A stretch of 64,000 nucleotides of DNA from the IMG/VR virus record IMGVR_UViG_3300032248_000171, positions 38,130 to 102,129 of that record. The stretch is one strand, 5' to 3'. Position numbers and translations under genes: made by a program. Positions within the stretch are counted from its first letter, which is position 1, and every line of letters starts with the position of its first letter. The stretch comes from a virus (taxonomy: Duplodnaviria; Caudoviricetes). Below, one piece after another: positions 52,839 to 61,497 of this stretch. The notes beneath the pieces were generated by a model, which was not told where the DNA came from, searched no databases, and saw nothing but the letters and a program-made list of their open reading frames with translations.

Positions 52839-53273
52839 TTATACTCCTAAGTCATCTTCGGTGAGAATAAGAAATTTCATTTGTCTATCCTCACACCAGT
52901 CACTTGCAGCTTCCCATTTCGCTTGATTCTTTAGGAATGTCAATACTTTATTTTTGTATACTTTTGTCTGCTTTGTTGCAGGAGGTGGAGGAGTGATCTG
53001 TTTCTTCGGTTTGATTTCAATGAGATATTTTTTGATTTCATTTGTTTTAGTACGAATTTTGATATAGAAGTCAACATAATAACGATGCAATCTCCCATCA
53101 ATCGGAGAACGATAAGGTATTATTACTTCTTCACTGCCCCATTGTATCACGCTGGCATTACGATCACAGAAAACCATAAACTTTCTTTCCCAGAGTGAAC
53201 GATAAACAATGTTCATCGGATTTCCTCTGTATTTGCTGGGATTTACGGGGCGATAGAATCCCGAGTAAGCCAT
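52839..53273 (-). CDS. gp4: Head completion nuclease gp4
   Basis: YRSLWE, WGSEE, IEIKP and NQAKW. Confidence 0.92.
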   Translation of the reverse strand: MAYSGFYRPVNPSKYRGNPMNIVYRSLWERKFMVFCDRNASVIQWGSEEVIIPYRSPIDGRLHRYYVDFYIKIRTKTNEIKKYLIEIKPKKQITPPPPATKQTKVYKNKVLTFLKNQAKWEAASDWCEDRQMKFLILTEDDLGV

Positions 53274-53308
53274 AAATATAAATATAAAACTACTCAAGGA
53301 TATTTAGA

Positions 53309-54073
53309 GTGGCAGGAACCCGTACAGCAGCAACAAGTATAACAAATATAGCTAGAATGCTGTCTCAGGGTGGAGGAATAGCATCTTCTAATATATTTAA
53401 AGTTACCTTTCAACCCAACGGAAGGAGTAAAACCAATAGAGTTTTTGATAATATCAAAGAAATTTTGCCAGGATTTATTGAATCGGAATTAGAAGGAGAT
53501 AATATTGGAACTAGTTCTGCTGCATACATTTCAATGATGTGTGATGAAGCAGTTTTGCCTGGAGTTCAAGCAGCATCTGGCCAGATAAATGGAATTTATA
53601 CTGGGTCTGGAACTTATAACTATGCACACACAAGATTGTATAATGATTTAACATTGTCATGGATATGTGATGCTAATATGACACCTGTTAAATTTTTAAC
53701 TACTTGGTTTGATGCTATTTTTAATGAATATAGTGCTGACGATAAAACAAGATATAGACCAAAAAATCAAGTAGATTCAAAAGATGTAAACAAAAGGGAT
53801 AGAAACAGATCCACAAGATTATCTTATCCAGATGATTACACATTAAATCTTTCTATATTGAAAGCAGAAAAAAATGCTAATTCAGAAACTGGTAGACCAT
53901 CAATAAGATATTATTTTGATGGAATATATCCATATTCTATTGATAGTATTCCCTTATCTTTTGGTGCTTCTACTCTAGTCAAAGTAACTGCTAATTTTTA
54001 TTATGAAAAATGGTATACTTATCATGTTAATCAATGGGGACGCCAAACATCAACATATAATGCTCGACCATAA
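53309..54073 (+). CDS. Tail-tube-initiator (gp54/gp19-like) protein
   Basis: CDEAVLPG...YPYSIDSIPLSFG...VTANFYY; TATAAATA at 53277-53284. Confidence 0.7.
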   Translation: MAGTRTAATSITNIARMLSQGGGIASSNIFKVTFQPNGRSKTNRVFDNIKEILPGFIESELEGDNIGTSSAAYISMMCDEAVLPGVQAASGQINGIYTGSGTYNYAHTRLYNDLTLSWICDANMTPVKFLTTWFDAIFNEYSADDKTRYRPKNQVDSKDVNKRDRNRSTRLSYPDDYTLNLSILKAEKNANSETGRPSIRYYFDGIYPYSIDSIPLSFGASTLVKVTANFYYEKWYTYHVNQWGRQTSTYNARP

Positions 54074-54111: not shown

Positions 54112-54828
54112 ATGCCTTTACCAAAACCACCAGTTCCAACATTTGAAACGAAAATTCCATCGAGTGGCAAGAAGATTCAATACAGACCATTCCTAGTTAA
54201 AGAAGAAAAAGTTCTTTTGATTGCTATGGAATCTCAGGATACCAAGCAAATTAAAGATGCCGTTGTACAAGTTTTGAAGAATTGTATATTAACTAGAGGT
54301 CTTAAGCTTGAAACTTTGTCAATGTTTGATATTGAATATATCTTTTTGCGTATCAGATCTAAATCTGTTGGCGAAACTGTCGAGATGAAATTTATTTGCA
54401 AAGATGATGGTGAAACAGAAGTTGTTTATGAATTAAATTTGGATGAAGTTGAAGTTCAATTTCCAGAAGGTCACAGCAAAAAGATTGAGTTAGATGAAAT
54501 ATCAGGAATGGTTATGAAGTATCCTGGTTATGATCAGTTTGTGAAAACTCAACTACTTCAGAAAGAACCTTCCACTACTGAAGTATTTGATATTGTTATT
54601 GATGCGGTTGATCAAATTTATCAGGGCGATGAGATTTGGGATTCTAGTACAACATCTAGAAAAGAAATCATTGACTACGTTGAGGGTTTGACCACCAAGC
54701 AGTTTGAAAAAATTCAAGAATTCTTTGCAACTATGCCTAAACTATCTCACACCATTGAGATTACAAATCCAAATACTGGTGTGAAATCTGAGTACGAAAT
54801 TGAGGGATTGGTAAATTTTTTCGCATAA
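54112..54828 (+). CDS. gp26: Baseplate hub assembly protein gp26
   Basis: YRPFLVKEEK, FDIEYIFL.IRSKSVGE and C-terminal EGLVNFFA. Confidence 0.92.
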   Translation: MPLPKPPVPTFETKIPSSGKKIQYRPFLVKEEKVLLIAMESQDTKQIKDAVVQVLKNCILTRGLKLETLSMFDIEYIFLRIRSKSVGETVEMKFICKDDGETEVVYELNLDEVEVQFPEGHSKKIELDEISGMVMKYPGYDQFVKTQLLQKEPSTTEVFDIVIDAVDQIYQGDEIWDSSTTSRKEIIDYVEGLTTKQFEKIQEFFATMPKLSHTIEITNPNTGVKSEYEIEGLVNFFA

Positions 54829-54995
54829 GCCTATTTCATGAATCACTTGAGAACCATTACAGGTCCAATTTTAATTTGATGTATCATCATAAATTTTCCT
54901 TAACTGAATTGGAAAATATGATGCCATGGGAGAGGCAAGTATATATTGCGATGCTTAATCATTACATCGAAGAACAAAAGAAAAATAACCAGTAA
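54804..54995 (+). CDS. gp51: Baseplate hub assembly catalyst gp51 reading frame (-1 relative to gp26; not in ORF track)
   Basis: LFHESLENHYRSNFNLMYHHKFSLTELENMMPWERQVYIAML; the first ATG is only at 54879. Confidence 0.85.
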   Translation, partial: GIGKFFRISLFHESLENHYRSNFNLMYHHKFSLTELENMMPWERQVYIAMLNHYIEEQKKNNQ

Positions 54996-57900
54996 TGAGA
55001 TACGGAAACATCATAAAATCATATGAAATACCATTCAAACAGTGGTCTCCTGCTCGTCAGGCACAGTGGAAGAATGGTATGCTCAAAAATCTCCTGGAAT
55101 TTAACAGGGGAATTGTTGCTGTTTCTTATGGTGTTGAGTATGACCAAGTTACTCCTATTATATTTGGAGCATTAGGTAAGTCGGATAAAGAATTCCCAAT
55201 CCCTCTCGATGGTACACTTTCTCCAACGGATTCACGGGGTTTACAGCAGGGGAAAGAGTATGCCTGTCTTCTCTGGGAGTATTTTGTTGGTGTTAACTTA
55301 CTAGAAACACCAAAGGTTTTAGAACCACCAGCAAATCCACTGAATAATCAGAACACTGAACCAGTAGTTAAAGAACCACAAAAAGAAGTTCTACCCGAAC
55401 CAGTTCTACCCGAACCAGCGAAGCAAGATGCTTTGCAGGAAGATGATGGCGAACAAGAAGAAAAAGAAACCATCAAGGAAGTTACAAAACTCACTGATGA
55501 GATAGACAAAGAAGACGATAAGAAATCTAGTCCCAAAGAAGAAGATAACGATAAAGATTTTGATAAAATTAGTGATGCTTTAAAAAATATTAAAGGATCT
55601 ATAAGTTCGCAGGCATCTATTGTCACTGCAATCTCTAACACAAACTCTGGGTCTATACAAACCTTGGGATTGATTAAAGATATCTTCACTACTCAGAATG
55701 AACTTATTAAAAAACAGTTTGAAGATGAAGAGTCTAGACAAAATGAAGCTGCTGTAGAACAAAGCACTAAGAATAGTGGGTCAGTTAAATCAACATCCAC
55801 TATGGACACTGGCAATGCTAGTGGGGAAATTATTAAAATAGATGGTGATGTATTAACTGTTAAACCAACCGAAGGATCTTTCCAAGAAGGTCAACAGATT
55901 TCTTCTGGTGGTGGTGGATTTGATTTGTTCGGAATGTTAAAAGGTATCGCAGGAAAATTTGGAAAGGGTAAAGGAGGTGGCGGTGGAGGAGGATCTCCAA
56001 TTAAAATGTCAATGGGTGGATTTTTAAACACTGCATATCCTGCTATGGCCAAAGGAGGAATATCTCCAGGCATATATGATAAACCAACCAGAGGAAATCT
56101 AATGCCTGGACAGGCAGTCATTCCTTTGAATAGAAATATAGGAAAGAATTTAGACCCTAGAAAAAAAGTATTAAACAAATCACAACCATTTGCTGATGTT
56201 ATGCAGACACCAGTGAAAGCAATAGGTGCTGCTATTATTGCTACGGCTGGTAATTTTATCAGAGCACTTGGACCATTGGGTGGATTCTTTGCTCCGTATA
56301 TTACTTCTTTGATTAATCCAATGGGTCTTGTTTTGGGACTCAGTACTTCAGTAATTGAGAGTATTCTTGGTGGTCCCGCATATGCTGCTGCATTAGATCA
56401 AGACAAACAACAGAATGTTTTTGCAAAATTGTGGTCTGATTTGATGAAAGTATTTGGATTTAATTTTGATGCAGACAAAGAAGATAAAAAAGATAAAAAA
56501 AATAATACAAACAATAATATAACTGCTGATAATATAGATGGTACAACTGCTGAAAGGGCAGCAAAAGTTGCTACTCAATTAATGAGTTCTCTTGGATTGA
56601 AAGATTTTCAAGCAGCTGGTATTGTTGGCAACTTACTTGCAGAAAGTGGGTTGGAAGCAGCAAGAGTTCAAGATACACCAGCAGGACAGAAGGGATTGTT
56701 GAAAGTTGATGGTTATACTGGATATGGTTACGCGCAGTGGACTTCTGCTGGTAGGCAACAAGCTCTATGGGACTATGCAAAATCAAAAGGTGTAGATCCA
56801 GCAACACAACCATTAACTGATGGCGTCAATCTTGGTTATTTGGTAAAAGAACTAAAAGAAAGTTATAGTGGTGTTGTGAGTGGTTTAAAATCTAGTACGT
56901 CGTTACAGGAAGCTTCAAATGTAGTATTGTTTGACTTCGAATCACCTAGAAATCAAGGTCCATCTGTACAAACGGCTAGAGCAAGCAAAGGTAAAGCAGT
57001 ATTAGATAAAATGTCTGCCGAATCTGGAGGAATGTTCAACTCTCCATATTCTGGTGATGCTTTTACTTTAAGTGGACCAAATAGTGGATATGATGTGCCT
57101 GCCTTAGGTATAGAAATGCATGGTAAAGAAATTGTGGTTCCAAATGAATATGAAAATGGATTCACTGTTCTGCCTGTGGAAAATAATAGGTTCAGTTTAA
57201 AAAATGACCCTCTACGCACTCTAATGCAGTGGAAAAATATCTTTTCCAGCAAATCAAAACCAGTTGATCCTGGTATTGGTTCCCGACCAAAATTTGCAGC
57301 AGGTGGTAAGGTTACTTTATATGCTGGTCATGCTGATATGACATCAGATTCTCCAGGTGGAAAGGGAACTAATGGTGGAGCAGATGGAGGAGCTCCAAAG
57401 ATTGCAGATGCTTCTGGGTATTTTACAACAGAAGCATATCTAAATGATAAGATTGCTGCTGCAGCTGCTGCTAAATCAGGTGGCATGGCAGAATATAGAG
57501 CACCAATTAAAACAAGGAATGGTAGTGATTCCAAGAGCAACTGGGAGAGAGCAAGGAAAGATGCTGCTGGTGGCAACTCTCCTATTGAAATTCACCACGA
57601 TGCAGAGAGTGGTCATGGTGGTATGATAGCAACGGATCAGCAGTCAATAAACAAAAACAAATTCTTTAAGGGAGTAAATGATTCCTTTGGATTCTATCGT
57701 ACTGGCAACGAAGGGTTTGTTAGTAGAGGTGGAACTATATTAGAAATGGCAGCATTGAGTAAGAGCATCAGACAAAATCCTAGTTCTTGGATATCTTCTG
57801 CATCCACTCAACTAGCAGATGCTATTAAGAAAGGTGCAGGAATGAAAGTAGATGATACAAATTCTAATGATACAACTAACCAAACATCTCCATCTGAATC

Positions 57901-58225
57901 TACACAATCAGAGGATCCTTTTGTTAACATGGAGAATGCTATTAAATCTATGAGTGTTGGATTTGGATTGTCTGCTGCTGTTAGAGATGGATCTGTAACA
58001 GACGAAGCATCATTCAAAGCAATGCAAACTCGTCTTACTGCTGCAGCTGGAGCAGAAGTAACCACTCCAAAAACTCCAACGATAACACCATCCAAACAAG
58101 CGGCTCCTTCTAATGTTCATGTTGTATCTAAAGGTTCTGAAAAAGTAATTATGGTTGGCAGTGGAAGCAACGCTAAACAAGTTGGCACAATGTTAAACAA
58201 TCTATGTGTACCAAACTACGGATAA
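54995..58225 (+). CDS. Tape-measure/hub-like tail protein with phage-tail lysozyme and amidase domains
   Basis: AAGIVGNLLAESGL...GYGYAQWT (lysozyme); LYAGH..TE...IEIHHD...ILEM (Amidase_3-type Zn ligands). Confidence 0.75.
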   Translation: MRYGNIIKSYEIPFKQWSPARQAQWKNGMLKNLLEFNRGIVAVSYGVEYDQVTPIIFGALGKSDKEFPIPLDGTLSPTDSRGLQQGKEYACLLWEYFVGVNLLETPKVLEPPANPLNNQNTEPVVKEPQKEVLPEPVLPEPAKQDALQEDDGEQEEKETIKEVTKLTDEIDKEDDKKSSPKEEDNDKDFDKISDALKNIKGSISSQASIVTAISNTNSGSIQTLGLIKDIFTTQNELIKKQFEDEESRQNEAAVEQSTKNSGSVKSTSTMDTGNASGEIIKIDGDVLTVKPTEGSFQEGQQISSGGGGFDLFGMLKGIAGKFGKGKGGGGGGGSPIKMSMGGFLNTAYPAMAKGGISPGIYDKPTRGNLMPGQAVIPLNRNIGKNLDPRKKVLNKSQPFADVMQTPVKAIGAAIIATAGNFIRALGPLGGFFAPYITSLINPMGLVLGLSTSVIESILGGPAYAAALDQDKQQNVFAKLWSDLMKVFGFNFDADKEDKKDKKNNTNNNITADNIDGTTAERAAKVATQLMSSLGLKDFQAAGIVGNLLAESGLEAARVQDTPAGQKGLLKVDGYTGYGYAQWTSAGRQQALWDYAKSKGVDPATQPLTDGVNLGYLVKELKESYSGVVSGLKSSTSLQEASNVVLFDFESPRNQGPSVQTARASKGKAVLDKMSAESGGMFNSPYSGDAFTLSGPNSGYDVPALGIEMHGKEIVVPNEYENGFTVLPVENNRFSLKNDPLRTLMQWKNIFSSKSKPVDPGIGSRPKFAAGGKVTLYAGHADMTSDSPGGKGTNGGADGGAPKIADASGYFTTEAYLNDKIAAAAAAKSGGMAEYRAPIKTRNGSDSKSNWERARKDAAGGNSPIEIHHDAESGHGGMIATDQQSINKNKFFKGVNDSFGFYRTGNEGFVSRGGTILEMAALSKSIRQNPSSWISSASTQLADAIKKGAGMKVDDTNSNDTTNQTSPSESTQSEDPFVNMENAIKSMSVGFGLSAAVRDGSVTDEASFKAMQTRLTAAAGAEVTTPKTPTITPSKQAAPSNVHVVSKGSEKVIMVGSGSNAKQVGTMLNNLCVPNYG
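55388..55417 (+). repeat. Perfect 15-bp tandem repeat (VLPEP twice)
   Basis: GTTCTACCCGAACCA occurs twice in tandem. Confidence 0.85.
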
Positions 58226-58248: not shown

Positions 58249-61200
58249 ATGGCGGCAGGATCTGTAAATTCAACATCAACGTATGTGGAAGGTAAAAGTT
58301 TTAGCTTTGCTAAGACAGTTGCTTCTAAGGTGCTTGATGCTGCCTATGCTGCGAAGGATAAAAAGAAAAAGATAAATGCTTCTGGTCATGAAGCACCGAA
58401 AGGATTGTTTGCTAATGAATTAAAGAAGCAATTCATTACCAATCCATATAAAGATTTTACTAAAAAGATAAACAAAAATATTGAAAAGAAAGCAAAGTTT
58501 GTTGGTCTTTTCAGTGATAGTGGTGAAAAATTTATAAACAAATTTCAGATAGGAAAAAAGAAACCACCTACGAAACCAAGTAAACCATCTGATTCTCCTA
58601 AAAGTGGAGGAGGTGGTGGTGGCGCTGGTCTGTCTGGTATTGGTTCTATTGTTTTAGATATAGAACAACTTGCAAATTCATTTAGTAATCTTACGAGTTT
58701 GTTTAATACAAATCTTGGATTGACATACAAGATGAGTGGTGGACTTGCTGACATAAAAAATATTTTATCAGAACAACTTTCACTACAAAAGGAAAAGATA
58801 TCTAGAGATGAGATGCGAGCAAGAGAAGCATCTTTAGAAAATTCTCAACAAAATTCTGGTTCGGTCTCTTCCACTTCTACTATAAGAGACCAAGGATTGT
58901 TGGAGATGTTTGGTGATTTTAAAAATATCATTAACATGATTAAATCATTGCCAGAAATGTTTGGTGGATTATTTAAAAGTATTATTTCAAAATTTCCTGG
59001 TGGTAAATCTTTACTGGCAAAATTTGGCAAAGGGGCAGCAGTTGCTGGTGTGGAAGGAGCAGCAGAAGCAGGAGGAAAAGGATTACTGAAAGGATTATTT
59101 AGAAATTTTCTCAAACCTCTAAGGGGAGTTTTTAAAGCTATTCCTTTTGGTCTTGGAGGTCTTTTTGATTTTGCTCTTAACTTAGCATTAGGTGAAAATC
59201 CTGGTAGGGCAGCTGCCAAAGCAATTGGTTCAACCATTGGTTCTTCATTGGGTGCAATGGTTGCTGGAGCATTAGGACTTGCTGGCGGTCCAGCAGCAAT
59301 TGCTACTGGTGCCGTTGGAGCAATCTTAGGTGGAACAATAGGTGATTGGTTGGGTGGTGCTGCCTATGATATGTTTGCTCCTAAAGATAATAAGATGGCT
59401 GCTGGTGGCGTGATGATTGGTGAGGCAGGACCAGAGATGGTCACTCCATTAAACTCTGCTATGGGTCAAGGAATGATGGGTGGTGATGCATTAGATGATG
59501 CATATGCTCAACCATATAATGCTGTGGCTGGTGGTATGCTAGCAGTAACCAAAGATTTTGTTGAGGGTATGGGACCAATTGGATCGATGGTTGCTCCTGC
59601 TATACAAAACGATGTTGATAAATTGGGTAGAGTATTTGATATTCCCTCCACCTCCACAAATATAGAAGTTGGTGGAGCAAATCTAAGAGCAAATCCTCTT
59701 GCGGAAAGAGAAGGTAAAAAATACATGCAAGATTTGGTTGAAGGATCTCTAAAAAAACTTTCTCCTGAGAAGAAAAAAGATAAACAATCATCTACTGGAA
59801 GCAGTGGTGGTTCGGGAGGTACTACTCCCTCGTCTAGTGATGAAACAGGAGGTAATACTCCCGCAGATAGTGGTACTACACCAACAGCAGCACCAACTAA
59901 ACCTGCCGAAACTAATGATCAGTATGCTCAAAGACAATTAAAAGAAACTGTTTCAGGAGTCAACCCCACTATGGTTCCTGCTGCAAATACTCAGGGATAT
60001 ACTACCATTGATCAATTTAATGTTGCTAACCCTAATTTTGAGAGAGTTAAGTATGATACTGGTAATGTTGCTGAAGGATATTTTTATGATTCCAAAGGAA
60101 ACATTTATCAAATTAAAGAAGATGGAACCAGAAGAGTTATATCAAATGATAAAACAATTTTAAAAAAAGGAGTACCAAATGGGTGGATGAATGAAAGAAT
60201 GAATTTCTTCCAAAGAAATTTGAGAGATGGTAGAGTAACTCTTTCACATAAACCAACGATTGGAGCATATGATTACGCATCCAATGGTGTTTACACTAGA
60301 AAGCAAAGGTTGAGTGCGTGGGCAGATGAAAGTAATCCTGGTGCAGCGAGCAACATGGAAACTTATGCTCAGATAACACCAGTTTCTAAGTATGATCCAA
60401 CTGGAACAAAATTCAATGCTTCTCAACCATATGGACCTGTTCCACAAACTAGTATGGGCAGACCAAATGATCCAGGCAAAGGAAAAGCAGAATCGGGTAT
60501 CAAAGCAGTTCTAACTTTAAGTGGGGGCACATGGCCTAATCTTCCTGTGCATTCTTTTGCTGAAACAAAACCTCATCATGGTGGTGGTGACCAAAGTGAT
60601 GGTGCTGGTGGATTTAAAAGAGATTATCTATTACAGAAACCAAATGCAAAGGATGGTGTTCTTGCTGGTCCTAGTCATAAAGGAGCACCAGTTCCTGCTG
60701 GTATGAATGGTTATGCTGAGGTAGAAGGTGGAAGTGTTAATGCAGTTAGAATCTGGGATAAACCCGCCAGCGATCCTACTCGTAAAATGAGAGCAAGATT
60801 TCTACACTTTGATAGTATAAGAGTGAAGACAGGAGATCAAGTTAATCCAGGAACTATACTCGGTGGTCAAGGTAATAAACCAAACTACGATGCATACCAT
60901 GTTCATCTAGAAGCATCAGCAAAAGACCAAGACCAATGGATTAAAACAGTTGATGCTATGATTGCTGGTGGTCAGTTACCATCTGATTCTGAAAATCCAT
61001 CCGACCCAGGTGTTCAAACATCTGATGACCCATTTGAGGCAATGAATCAAGCAATTCAAAAGCTATCTGTTGGTCTTGGATTATCTGCTGCTGTACAGAA
61101 GGGCATGGTAACAGATGAAGCATCATTCAAATCATTACAAGATAAATTAAGCACTGCTGCTGCTGATAAATCTCCATCTGCTGCTTCGGATAAAGCATCA

Positions 61201-61497
61201 GCACCAGCACATTTCGAAAGAGCTGGTGGTGGTGGGGGTGCGGGCGGAAGTAGCACTCAACCATCTCCTGCAGCACCACCAAGACCTGCTGCGACCCCAA
61301 TGGGGGCATCGGGACCAGCACCCGCTACACAATCGCCACAGGTGGCAGTGGTGGGCGCTCCTGTTGCTGCATCATCTCAAGTTGCGGTCCCTTCATCTAG
61401 ACCTAACATGACTCCTGCTGGGATGAGCGATGATTCTTTTGCCAGCCTAGATAGCACTGCAATGACATTAAAACCATTTACTTACTGGGTATCATAA
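58249..61497 (+). CDS. Paralogous tape-measure/hub-like tail protein with an M23-like peptidase domain
   Basis: Gly/Ala hydrophobic region; FLHFDSIRVKTGDQVNPGTILGGQG...HVHLE. Confidence 0.72.
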   Translation: MAAGSVNSTSTYVEGKSFSFAKTVASKVLDAAYAAKDKKKKINASGHEAPKGLFANELKKQFITNPYKDFTKKINKNIEKKAKFVGLFSDSGEKFINKFQIGKKKPPTKPSKPSDSPKSGGGGGGAGLSGIGSIVLDIEQLANSFSNLTSLFNTNLGLTYKMSGGLADIKNILSEQLSLQKEKISRDEMRAREASLENSQQNSGSVSSTSTIRDQGLLEMFGDFKNIINMIKSLPEMFGGLFKSIISKFPGGKSLLAKFGKGAAVAGVEGAAEAGGKGLLKGLFRNFLKPLRGVFKAIPFGLGGLFDFALNLALGENPGRAAAKAIGSTIGSSLGAMVAGALGLAGGPAAIATGAVGAILGGTIGDWLGGAAYDMFAPKDNKMAAGGVMIGEAGPEMVTPLNSAMGQGMMGGDALDDAYAQPYNAVAGGMLAVTKDFVEGMGPIGSMVAPAIQNDVDKLGRVFDIPSTSTNIEVGGANLRANPLAEREGKKYMQDLVEGSLKKLSPEKKKDKQSSTGSSGGSGGTTPSSSDETGGNTPADSGTTPTAAPTKPAETNDQYAQRQLKETVSGVNPTMVPAANTQGYTTIDQFNVANPNFERVKYDTGNVAEGYFYDSKGNIYQIKEDGTRRVISNDKTILKKGVPNGWMNERMNFFQRNLRDGRVTLSHKPTIGAYDYASNGVYTRKQRLSAWADESNPGAASNMETYAQITPVSKYDPTGTKFNASQPYGPVPQTSMGRPNDPGKGKAESGIKAVLTLSGGTWPNLPVHSFAETKPHHGGGDQSDGAGGFKRDYLLQKPNAKDGVLAGPSHKGAPVPAGMNGYAEVEGGSVNAVRIWDKPASDPTRKMRARFLHFDSIRVKTGDQVNPGTILGGQGNKPNYDAYHVHLEASAKDQDQWIKTVDAMIAGGQLPSDSENPSDPGVQTSDDPFEAMNQAIQKLSVGLGLSAAVQKGMVTDEASFKSLQDKLSTAAADKSPSAASDKASAPAHFERAGGGGGAGGSSTQPSPAAPPRPAATPMGASGPAPATQSPQVAVVGAPVAASSQVAVPSSRPNMTPAGMSDDSFASLDSTAMTLKPFTYWVS

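What the first reader, a model, noticed from the sequence alone, without database searches (positions are those of the whole stretch)
54804..54995. Probable programmed -1 frameshift fusing gp26 to a start-less gp51, a lambda G/GT-like arrangement in a T4-like phage
Seen: gp26 ends GTA AAT TTT TTC GCA TAA (54811-54828). This contains two in-frame X XXY YYZ slippery heptamers, A AAT TTT and T TTT TTC. The -1 frame opens just upstream (after TGA 54801-54803) and reads ...FRISLFHESLENHYRSNFNLMYHHKFSLTELENMMPWER to TAA at 54995. No ATG or GTG occurs before 54879, which is inside the gp51-like region. The pair sits immediately before the tape-measure-like genes. Known: tail assembly chaperones of many long-tailed phages are made as G and GT by a -1 shift at this genomic position, whereas T4 gp26 and gp51 are treated as separate genes. 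Inference: here gp26 and gp26-51 are the G/GT equivalents.
Basis: partly seen in the sequence, partly recalled or inferred. Interest (0 to 1): 0.8.

Follow-up and report, generated by a model that had tools for sequence, protein, structure and literature searches.

The report
Frameshift in T4-like hub-chaperone gene
One tail-baseplate assembly gene of this uncultured marine T4-like phage very probably makes a 238-residue and a 294-residue protein, because some ribosomes slip back one base on a strictly conserved TTTTTTC; phage T4 makes the same pair from two separate genes (26 and 51).

Summary
gp26 (54112-54828) ends GTA AAT TTT TTC GCA TAA. The -1 frame is open from 54804 to TAA 54993-54995 and has no ATG/GTG/TTG before 54876.

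- All 91 related single-gene loci in the main set (74 distinct) carry an in-frame T TTT TTN within 0-3 codons of the gp26 stop.
- The gp51-like ORF is in the -1 phase in all 98 single-gene loci examined.
- Its conserved peptide starts at the heptamer, about 18 codons before any start codon.
- A profile of the conceptual fusions aligns T4 gp51 (249 aa) in one stretch across the junction. T4 gp26 stops at the junction.
- Six phages that carry a separate gene 51 keep the terminal Phe residue(s) but have no heptamer.
- The N-terminal 95 residues of the gp26 model resemble the HK97 tail assembly chaperone (Z 7.3-7.7; suggestive only).

This window has no convincing downstream RNA structure, but it has a GAGGG 9 nt upstream of the heptamer.

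No paper or database record that I could search reports the slip, and a 2016 review states that G-T frameshifting is conserved "except T4". Earlier agents of this scan reached the same reading on other genomes (315 notes, at least 277 genomes). No experiment exists.

The parts
54112..54828 (+). gp26-type gene, zero-frame product of 238 aa (short form, baseplate hub assembly chaperone)
   Evidence: Pfam T4_baseplate PF12322 E 3e-67 and phrog_150 E 3.6e-74. AlphaFold2 model pLDDT 86.
54816..54822 (+). Slippery heptamer T TTT TTC (X XXY YYZ in the gp26 frame); proposed site of the -1 tandem slip of two tRNA-Phe
   Evidence: Present in frame in 91/91 single-gene loci as T TTT TTC, TTT or TTA. The preceding codon always ends in T. 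Absent in 6/6 phages with a separate gene 51.
54813..54819 (+). Second in-frame heptamer A AAT TTT; not conserved, probably incidental
   Evidence: The preceding codons vary (AGT, GAT, TCT, or C/G before AAT) in the other loci.
54802..54806 (+). Shine-Dalgarno-like GAGGG 9 nt upstream of the heptamer; possible stimulator (inferred)
   Evidence: The Glu codon at this position is GAG in 17 of 21 representatives, against 32% GAG in the same genes (binomial p = 5e-6). It is not universal: S-RSM4 and others lack it.
54826..54828 (+). TAA stop of the zero frame, one codon after the A-site codon of the heptamer
   Evidence: The stop lies 0-1 codon after the heptamer in 72 of 74 distinct loci.
54822..54995 (+). 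-1 frame extension: 57 codons plus TAA, the gp51-like C-terminal module. With gp26 codons 1-237 it gives a 294-aa fusion.
   Evidence: phrog_634 'baseplate hub assembly catalyst' E 7e-23; also matches the C-terminus of phrog_150, positions 238-278 of 282. tblastn finds it in 547 phage records, aligned from residue 1-2. Coding-type variation in the -1 frame before any start codon.
54801..54803 (+). TGA that closes the -1 frame 13 nt upstream of the heptamer, which limits where the frame can be entered
   Evidence: In about 12 loci the -1 frame opens only at the TTT TTT itself.
53309..54073 (+). Upstream tail-tube-family gene (gp54-like), same strand
   Evidence: Pfam Phage_TTP_2 E 3.8e-48 and phrog_45 tail tube. 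The neighbour in ValKK3 is annotated as baseplate-tail tube initiator.
54995..58225 (+). Downstream 1076-aa protein with a tail lysozyme domain. Its ATG overlaps the TAA of the -1 ORF (TAATG). Tape-measure candidate, not proven.
   Evidence: Pfam Phage_lysozyme2 E 4.5e-24; the weak phrog tape-measure hit covers only the lysozyme region.
58249..61497 (+). Second giant protein (1082 aa) with an M23 peptidase-like region; paralog of the previous one
   Evidence: Peptidase_M23 E 1.2e-4, below the curated cut-off. Three collinear BLASTP segments with the 1076-aa protein, E 2e-15 to 2e-6.

Best explanation
Gene 26 of this phage is a two-product gene. Most ribosomes read 54112-54828 and release the 238-aa gp26. 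A minority reach codons AAT TTT TTC with tRNA-Phe in both the P and A sites, slip back one base on U UUU UUC (both tRNAs re-pair with UUU), and read 57 more codons in the -1 frame to TAA 54993-54995. This gives a 294-aa gp26-51 fusion with the junction ..GLVNFF|RISLFHE... The fusion is the counterpart of full-length T4 gp51, and the short form is the counterpart of T4 gp26. By analogy with T4 genetics and with lambda gpG/gpGT, both forms act as baseplate-hub/tail-initiation assembly chaperones that are not built into the virion, and the slip efficiency fixes their ratio. Shown here: the sequence architecture, its conservation, and the homology of the fusion to T4 gp51. Inferred: that the slip happens, that it is ribosomal, its efficiency, the stimulatory role of the upstream GAGGG and of the nearby stop codon, and the chaperone function.
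For: (1) 91/91 single-gene loci (gp26 38-99% identical; 74 distinct) have an in-frame T TTT TTN 0-3 codons before the stop. (2) Synonymous sites are fixed. The preceding codon is AGT, AAT, GAT or TCT and never a non-T synonym, and the P-site codon is always TTT. Given the amino acids and the genes' own codon usage, P is about 1e-10 for 29 representatives below 70% identity, treating them as independent. The A-site codon can be TTA (Leu), so the nucleotide run is kept rather than Phe-Phe. (3) The gp51-like ORF is in the -1 phase in 98/98 single-gene loci. (4) The 21 codons between the heptamer and the annotated ATG vary like coding sequence in the -1 frame (entropy 0.98/0.72/1.44 by codon position). 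The other two frames there carry 2.9 and 1.9 stops per sequence. In 13 of 29 representatives there is no ATG/GTG/TTG before extension codon 18. (5) A profile HMM of 29 conceptual fusions aligns T4 gp51 residues 16-245 as one domain across the junction, whereas T4 gp26 ends at the junction. Both T4 proteins match PF12322 over their full length. (6) Natural control: T4, CF1, KP185, ABTNLsp5, Morttis and Acj9 all carry a separate gene 51. They keep ..EFF/EFV/EFI.. at the gp26 end, but coded GAR TTC TTT, TTT GTC or TTT ATT, so 0/6 have a heptamer. (7) The window's own 102-kb record has a single PF12322 gene. (8) This explains the published puzzle that cyanophage gp51 is only about 20% of normal length (PMC3037559). 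(9) The gp26 N-domain model matches HK97 tail assembly chaperone 2ob9 (Z 7.3-7.5), YqbN 3klu (Z 7.4) and 3fgx (Z 7.7), with the next unrelated hits at Z 4.3 or less.
Against: There are no experimental data of any kind: no fusion protein, Ribo-seq or reporter assay. The window has no convincing downstream stimulatory RNA structure (MFE z = +0.57), and no structure is conserved across lineages. The same heptamer occurs in frame at 4 of 34 other Phe-Phe sites in the window's long ORFs, so the motif alone is not diagnostic. Some lineages (Vibrio ValKK3, Mendera, Cr30, S-CRM01) have an ATG at the junction that could allow coupled re-initiation. Three distant loci (two Ackermannviridae and Vibrio K397) keep the -1 phase with only T TTC. 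The own record is about 55% complete, so a second gene cannot be excluded. The probability figures treat related sequences as independent.
Confidence: 0.82

Rival explanations
1. Transcriptional slippage. RNA polymerase adds one extra U in the T-run, and ordinary translation of that mRNA subpopulation gives exactly the same fusion protein.
For: The site is a homopolymer. Ten of 74 distinct loci have T7-T8 runs (for example AGT TTT TTT TAA). The protein product would be indistinguishable from that of a ribosomal slip.
Against: The run is only 6 T in the window and in 64 of 74 distinct loci. Documented bacterial slippage is on runs of about 9 A or T (PMC5009743). The run is always phased as xxT TTT TTN, which RNA polymerase would not need. 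TTC is the commonest A-site codon although TTT is the preferred Phe codon (72%), so run length is not being maximised.
Confidence: 0.08
2. Two independent genes, as in current GenBank annotation. A short gp51 (39 aa here, from TTG 54876 or ATG 54879) is initiated on its own, and the upstream -1 frame conservation is not translated.
For: A Met is conserved at extension codon 18/19 in most lineages, and records annotate 44-60-aa 'baseplate hub assembly catalyst' genes from it. Some lineages have an ATG at the junction.
Against: Eighteen to nineteen conserved residues lie upstream of that Met, with coding-type variation and no stops only in the -1 frame. They align to T4 gp51 residues about 200-220 without a gap. 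The phase is invariant in 98/98 loci. No SD-like sequence precedes 54876/54879. The heptamer conservation would be left unexplained.
Confidence: 0.05
3. Non-canonical initiation near the junction (for example ATA 54825) gives a free 56-aa gp51-like protein that includes the conserved N-terminal stretch.
For: The codon overlapping the gp26 stop is ATA or GTA in many loci.
Against: That codon follows automatically from the overlap with TAA/TAG. ATA is a very poor start codon. This reading does not explain the fixed T-run, the fixed -1 phase or the contiguous homology to T4 gp51. In loci where gp26 ends TTT TTT TAA the codon is TTA/ATA in other positions.
Confidence: 0.03

Closest known systems
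Phage T4 gp26 (208 aa) and gp51 (249 aa), baseplate hub assembly chaperones (Leiman et al. 2010, PMC3004832)
   Same: Same protein family: PF12322 and phrog_150. The short form ends at the same ..GL..FF.. position. The long form carries the same C-terminal helical module of about 45-57 aa. gp51 is required for hub assembly but is absent from the particle.
   Different: T4 encodes the two forms as two divergently transcribed paralogous genes and has no slippery run. Here one gene plus a -1 slip is proposed to give both. The Cys pairs of the T4 proteins are largely absent from the window protein.
Lambda gpG/gpGT and the conserved -1 frameshift of tail assembly chaperone genes in long-tailed phages (Levin 1993 and Xu, Hendrix & Duda 2004, as reviewed in PMC5009743)
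   Same: An X XXY YYZ heptamer lies a few codons before the stop of the short ORF. The extension is start-less and in the -1 frame. The gene follows a tube-family gene and precedes giant tail-lysin/tape-measure-like genes. The products are assembly factors not found in virions. The N-domain model resembles the HK97 chaperone structure.
   Different: No sequence similarity to G/GT families. The shared part is about twice as long (238 aa, with extra domains), and the extension is short (57 aa). The T4-type proteins act in baseplate hub assembly. The review explicitly lists T4 as the exception.
Phage P2 gpE/gpE+E' (myovirus tail chaperone frameshift)
   Same: A contractile-tail phage. From my own recollection (not checked here), its slip site is also a T-run (TTTTTTG) at the very end of the short ORF. 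The review notes 2- to 3-fold higher efficiency in P2-like phages.
   Different: Unrelated sequence family, much smaller proteins, and experimentally proven.

Membership tests
G/GT-type programmed -1 frameshift of tail assembly chaperone genes | Two overlapping ORFs, the second in the -1 frame and without its own start codon | tested here: met
   The -1 frame is open 54804-54995, and its first start-like codon is at 54876. The same holds in 13 of 29 representatives.
G/GT-type programmed -1 frameshift of tail assembly chaperone genes | [quoted passage not shown] | tested here: met
   T TTT TTC at 54816-54822. Present in 91/91 loci, with synonymous sites fixed. Absent in 6/6 two-gene phages.
G/GT-type programmed -1 frameshift of tail assembly chaperone genes | Position between the tail tube gene and the tape measure gene | tested here: inconclusive
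   The upstream gene belongs to a tube family (PF23849). The downstream 1076-aa and 1082-aa proteins carry lysozyme and M23-like domains, but tape-measure identity is not shown. In Cr30 an annotated tape measure lies two genes downstream.
G/GT-type programmed -1 frameshift of tail assembly chaperone genes | The shared part has the tail-assembly-chaperone fold | tested here: inconclusive
   Model residues 1-95 match 3fgx (Z 7.7), 2ob9 HK97 TAC (Z 7.3-7.5) and 3klu YqbN (Z 7.4), well above the next rows. However, Z below 8 is within the tool's stated grey zone, Foldseek E-values were not significant, and the T4-type gp51 model did not return these hits.
G/GT-type programmed -1 frameshift of tail assembly chaperone genes | Both the short and the frameshifted protein are made, in a fixed ratio, are needed for assembly, and are absent from virions | not testable with these tools
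   Only indirect support: T4 gp51 is required but is not in the particle, and gp26 and gp51 are listed as hub assembly chaperones (PMC3004832).
T4 gp26/gp51 family (Pfam PF12322 T4_baseplate) | Full-length match to the family profile above the curated cut-off | tested here: met
   227 bits against a cut-off of 24.5, residues 9-238 on profile positions 2-219.
T4 gp51 long form | C-terminal extension homologous to the gp51 C-terminus and contiguous with the PF12322 body | tested here: met
   The extension hits phrog_634 at E 7e-23. The fusion HMM aligns T4 gp51 residues 16-245 in one domain. Contiguity exists only after a -1 shift.
Programmed transcriptional slippage | Long homopolymeric run (about 9 A/T in the bacterial cases) | tested here: not met
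   The run is 6 T in the window and in 64 of 74 distinct loci. The length requirement is taken from PMC5009743.

The most novel reading that the evidence does not exclude
The -1 frameshift in gene 26 is the ancestral state of the whole T4 superfamily. It is present in Kyanoviridae, Schizotequatrovirus, Emdodecavirus, Menderavirus, the Methylophilales phage Melnitz, Aeromonas and Caulobacter myophages, and in degenerate form in Ackermannviridae. It would be homologous to the lambda G/GT tail-chaperone frameshift. Tevenvirinae and Twarogvirinae would then have replaced it by duplicating the gene and fixing the shifted frame in one copy (gene 51). On this reading T4 is not an exception to the tail-chaperone rule but a derived solution, and gp26/gp51 act on the tape measure and tube initiator as G/GT do.
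Probability: 0.5. Interest if true: 0.8.

Novelty: new member of a known kind. Interest (0 to 1): 0.7.

Why it matters
First, it would remove the one stated exception ("except T4") to the rule that long-tailed phages make their tail assembly chaperone in two forms by a -1 frameshift. Second, it explains why gp51 of cyanophages and marine vibriophages appears to lack its first ~200 residues. Third, it corrects the annotation of hundreds of phage genomes, where a 40-60-aa "baseplate hub assembly catalyst" is called from an internal Met or not at all. Fourth, it gives a concrete hypothesis for the long-unclear role of T4 gp51 and gp26: a G/GT-like pair whose ratio matters. Finally, it is a natural case in which a recoding signal and a gene duplication are interchangeable solutions.

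Tried and rejected
- **Conserved downstream RNA stimulator.** RNAalifold on 29 representatives gave no consensus structure. The window's 75 nt downstream fold no better than shuffles (z +0.57). Several other lineages have their own hairpins 5-8 nt downstream (z down to -5.4), but these are not homologous in position.
It is not conserved.
- **Sequence search of the PDB with gp26.** No hit.
- **Foldseek against the PDB.** Nothing significant.
- **VIA search with the T4-type gp51 model.** Only generic helix-loop-helix matches to residues 205-250, and no chaperone hits.
- **Local Pfam on the extension.** No family. The precomputed domain PF28602 seen on T4-type gp51 is not in the local copy, so I could not name it.
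- **Literature.** Seven searches combining gp51, gp26, frameshift, T4-like, cyanophage, baseplate hub assembly catalyst and tail assembly chaperone found no report of this slip. Subscription journals are not covered.
- **Database records.** No inspected record annotates a joined or slippage CDS.
- **T4 late-promoter motif.** There is no TATAAATA between gp26 and the extension.
I sampled two-gene phages through the phage collection instead.
- **Folding the fusion itself.** A -1 fusion cannot be handed to the fold tool, so I folded a natural T4-type gp51 relative in its place.

Full report
**What is in the sequence.** The + strand ORF 54112-54828 encodes a 238-aa protein. It matches Pfam T4_baseplate (PF12322) over its whole length (E 3e-67) and phrog_150 'baseplate hub' (E 3.6e-74). 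It ends GTA AAT TTT TTC GCA TAA at 54811-54828. The -1 frame is closed by TGA 54801-54803 and then open to TAA 54993-54995. Its first ATG/GTG/TTG codons are TTG 54876 and ATG 54879. The 57 codons from 54822 match phrog_634 'baseplate hub assembly catalyst' (gp51) at E 7e-23. They also match the C-terminal end of the gp26/gp51 family profile phrog_150, positions 238-278 of 282.

**Context.** The neighbours on the minus strand are gp53-, gp48-, gp2- and gp4-like genes. On the plus strand there is a tail-tube-family gene (53309-54073, PF23849), then gp26 with its extension, then two giant proteins. These are 1076 aa with a tail lysozyme domain and 1082 aa with an M23-like region. The same order is found in Kyanoviridae such as S-RSM4, Syn1 and Sf-CH1b. 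In those records gp51 is annotated as a 44-aa ORF from an internal ATG, or is not annotated at all. The window lies in a 102-kb virus record, estimated to be about 55% complete, that contains only this one PF12322 gene. The closest isolate proteins are below 60% identical.

**Conservation of the signal.** I collected 80 loci from viral contigs with the gp26 protein alone as query, so there was no selection on the 3' end. I added 10 annotated phages.
- All 91 loci, counting the window (74 distinct; gp26 38-99% identical), have an in-frame T TTT TTN 0-3 codons before the gp26 stop. The heptamer is TTTTTTC in 56 distinct loci, TTTTTTT in 10 and TTTTTTA in 8.
- The downstream gp51-like ORF is always in the -1 phase.
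- The codon before the run is AGT, AAT, GAT or TCT and never a synonym ending in another base. The P-site codon is always TTT.
- With the codon usage of the same genes (TTT 72%, AAT 73%, GAT 77%, Ser xxT 52%), the chance of this is about 1e-10 for 29 representatives below 70% identity. That figure treats them as independent, which they are not fully.
- The A-site codon may be TTA (Leu), so it is the nucleotide run that is kept, not Phe-Phe.
- In about 12 loci and in Melnitz, MED4-213 and S-RIM8, a -1 frame stop sits immediately before TTT TTT. There the frame can be entered only at the heptamer.

**The extension is translated from the heptamer on.** The conserved -1 peptide (consensus FFRIALSH..L.NYY..NF.LMQHHKYSL.E.E.M.PWERE.Y) starts at the run. 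In the 21 codons that precede the annotated Met, per-site variability by -1 frame codon position is 0.98/0.72/1.44. This is the same coding pattern as in gp26 upstream (1.16/0.81/1.67) and in the rest of the extension (0.90/0.48/1.40). The other two frames there hold 2.9 and 1.9 stops per sequence. In 13 of 29 representatives, the window included, no ATG/GTG/TTG exists before extension codon 18. tblastn of the 57-aa extension finds 547 phage records, nearly all aligned from residue 1 or 2. They include Vibrio (KVP40-type), Pelagibacter, Methylophilales, Sinorhizobium and Paraglaciecola phages.

**Relation to T4.** In T4, gene 26 (208 aa) and gene 51 (249 aa) are divergent neighbours. Both match PF12322 over the whole profile, and T4 gp51 covers phrog_150 positions 13-280 as well as phrog_634. 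So gp51 is a gp26 paralog with a C-terminal extension. A profile HMM built from 29 conceptual -1 fusions aligns T4 gp51 residues 16-245 in a single domain, running without a gap through the junction (..[20 protein letters not shown]..). T4 gp26 aligns up to the junction and ends there (..EFFEL). The frameshift product is thus the counterpart of T4 gp51, and the zero-frame product is the counterpart of T4 gp26. This explains the remark of Sullivan et al. 2010 that cyanophage and marine vibriophage gp51 lack the first ~200 residues (PMC3037559).

**Natural control.** Six phages carry a separate full-length gene 51: T4, Citrobacter CF1, Klebsiella KP185, Salmonella ABTNLsp5, and Acinetobacter Morttis and Acj9. 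At the homologous gp26 end they keep ..EFF....EFV.. or ..EFI.., but coded GAR TTC TTT, TTT GTC or TTT ATT. None has the heptamer. The slippery run is therefore found only where a -1 extension follows.

**Wider distribution.**
- Aeromonas phiWae14, Stenotrophomonas Mendera, Caulobacter Cr30 and Cronobacter LPCS28 also have the heptamer and the -1 gp51-like ORF.
- Two Ackermannviridae (phiMAM1, UPM 2146) and Vibrio K397 keep the -1 phase but have only T TTC (GTTTTCAT, ATTTTCAT, CTTTTCAAG). That would allow at most a single-tRNA slip.
- Some lineages (ValKK3, Mendera, Cr30, S-CRM01) have an ATG overlapping the gp26 stop. Coupled re-initiation could coexist with slipping there.

**Stimulators.** No downstream structure is conserved, and the window's own downstream 75 nt fold no better than shuffled sequence (z +0.57). 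Several other lineages have strong private hairpins 5-8 nt downstream. Upstream, GAGGG (54802-54806) lies 9 nt before the heptamer. At this Glu codon GAG is used in 17 of 21 representatives, against 32% in the same genes (p = 5e-6). This fits a Shine-Dalgarno-like stimulator of the dnaX type, which is my inference. It is not universal. The zero-frame stop lies 0-1 codon after the heptamer in 72 of 74 distinct loci. Whether that helps the slip or only marks the natural end of the gp26 domain cannot be told.

**Ribosomal or transcriptional.** An extra U added by RNA polymerase would give the same protein. Three observations argue against this. The run is only 6 T in the window and in 64 of 74 distinct loci, while bacterial slippage is documented on runs of about 9 (PMC5009743). 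The run is always phased xxT TTT TTN. TTC is the commonest A-site codon although TTT is the preferred Phe codon. I put transcriptional slippage at about 8%.

**Fold.**
- The AlphaFold2 model of gp26 (36-sequence alignment, pLDDT 86, pTM 0.80) has an N-terminal domain, residues 1-95. Its best matches among 48,161 PDB representatives are 3fgx (Z 7.7, rmsd 3.8, 86 aligned), YqbN 3klu (Z 7.4) and the HK97 tail assembly chaperone 2ob9 (Z 7.3-7.5). Then comes a PLE protein (5.2), and then unrelated rows at 4.3 or below.
- From memory, YqbN belongs to the XkdN-like tail chaperone family.
- The tool warns that Z below 8 can be a common arrangement, and Foldseek gave no significant E-value. I therefore count this as suggestive only.
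- A natural T4-type gp51 relative folds with pLDDT 91.5. Its C-terminal 45 residues form three helices packed on the body. The fold search for that model returned only generic helix-loop-helix matches.

**Literature and prior notes.** Leiman et al. 2010 list gp26 and gp51 as hub assembly chaperones and state that gp51 is required but not present in the particle (PMC3004832). Atkins et al. [quoted passage not shown] Seven full-text searches found no report of a frameshift in gene 26/51 of any T4-like phage, and none of the inspected GenBank or RefSeq records annotates one. The scan's own notebook holds 315 notes, from at least 277 other genomes, with the same reading. I took two leads from it, the 'except T4' quotation and the chaperone-like fold, and checked both myself.

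**Verdict.** This is a G/GT-type programmed -1 frameshift in the gp26/gp51 hub-chaperone gene. It is apparently unpublished and widespread in T4-like phages outside the T-even core. My confidence that the fusion is made by recoding at the T-run is about 0.9, and that the mechanism is a ribosomal -1 slip about 0.82. It is a new member of a known kind, not a new mechanism. All functional statements remain inferences until a fusion protein is shown.

Noticed in passing
window 54995-58225 and 58249-61497: The two tandem giant proteins (1076 and 1082 aa) are paralogs. They share three collinear segments (N-terminal, middle Gly/hydrophobic, and a C-terminal ..DPF..M..AI...SVG.GLSAAV..G.VTDEASFK.. 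motif; E 2e-15 to 2e-6). Their central enzymatic domains differ: tail lysozyme versus M23-like. They may be the tape-measure/cell-puncturing proteins of this phage group.
   Followed up: partly
L095:1620-1700, L096:1600-1680, L098:1580-1660 (Serratia phiMAM1, Klebsiella UPM 2146, Vibrio K397): Ackermannviridae and a 157-kb Vibrio phage also have a gp51-like ORF in the -1 phase after their gp26-like gene. The run there is degenerate (GTTTTCAT, ATTTTCAT, CTTTTCAAG), and no gp51 is annotated. This may be a single-tRNA slip variant, or re-initiation.
   Followed up: partly
L093:1590-1800 (Aeromonas phage phiWae14): A large Aeromonas phage has the heptamer and a hidden -1 gp51-like ORF that opens only at the TTT TTT. 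This may explain why gp51 was reported missing in Aeh1 (PMC3037559), if Aeh1 is built the same way. I did not check Aeh1.
   Followed up: no
L001, L018, L019, L034, L050, L091 downstream of the heptamer: Several lineages carry strong hairpins 5-8 nt downstream of the heptamer that are not homologous to one another (z -2.3 to -5.4), while the window's lineage has none. The stimulators seem to be lineage-specific.
   Followed up: partly
proteins P0003-P0094 (T4-type gp51): The precomputed domain PF28602 accompanies PF12322 on nearly all T4-type gp51 proteins. It is not in the local Pfam copy, so its name and extent could not be read. It probably covers the C-terminal module.
   Followed up: no
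window 53277-53284 (+): An exact T4 late-promoter-like TATAAATA lies about 25 nt upstream of the tube-like gene start (53309), inside the 5' end of the divergent gp4 gene. There is none between gp26 and the extension. The motif is not enriched in the window overall (7 found, 5.7 expected).
   Followed up: partly
window 52839-53297 (-): The gp4-like head completion protein matches Pfam Tn7_TnsA-like_N (endonuclease fold) at E 3e-20.
   Followed up: no
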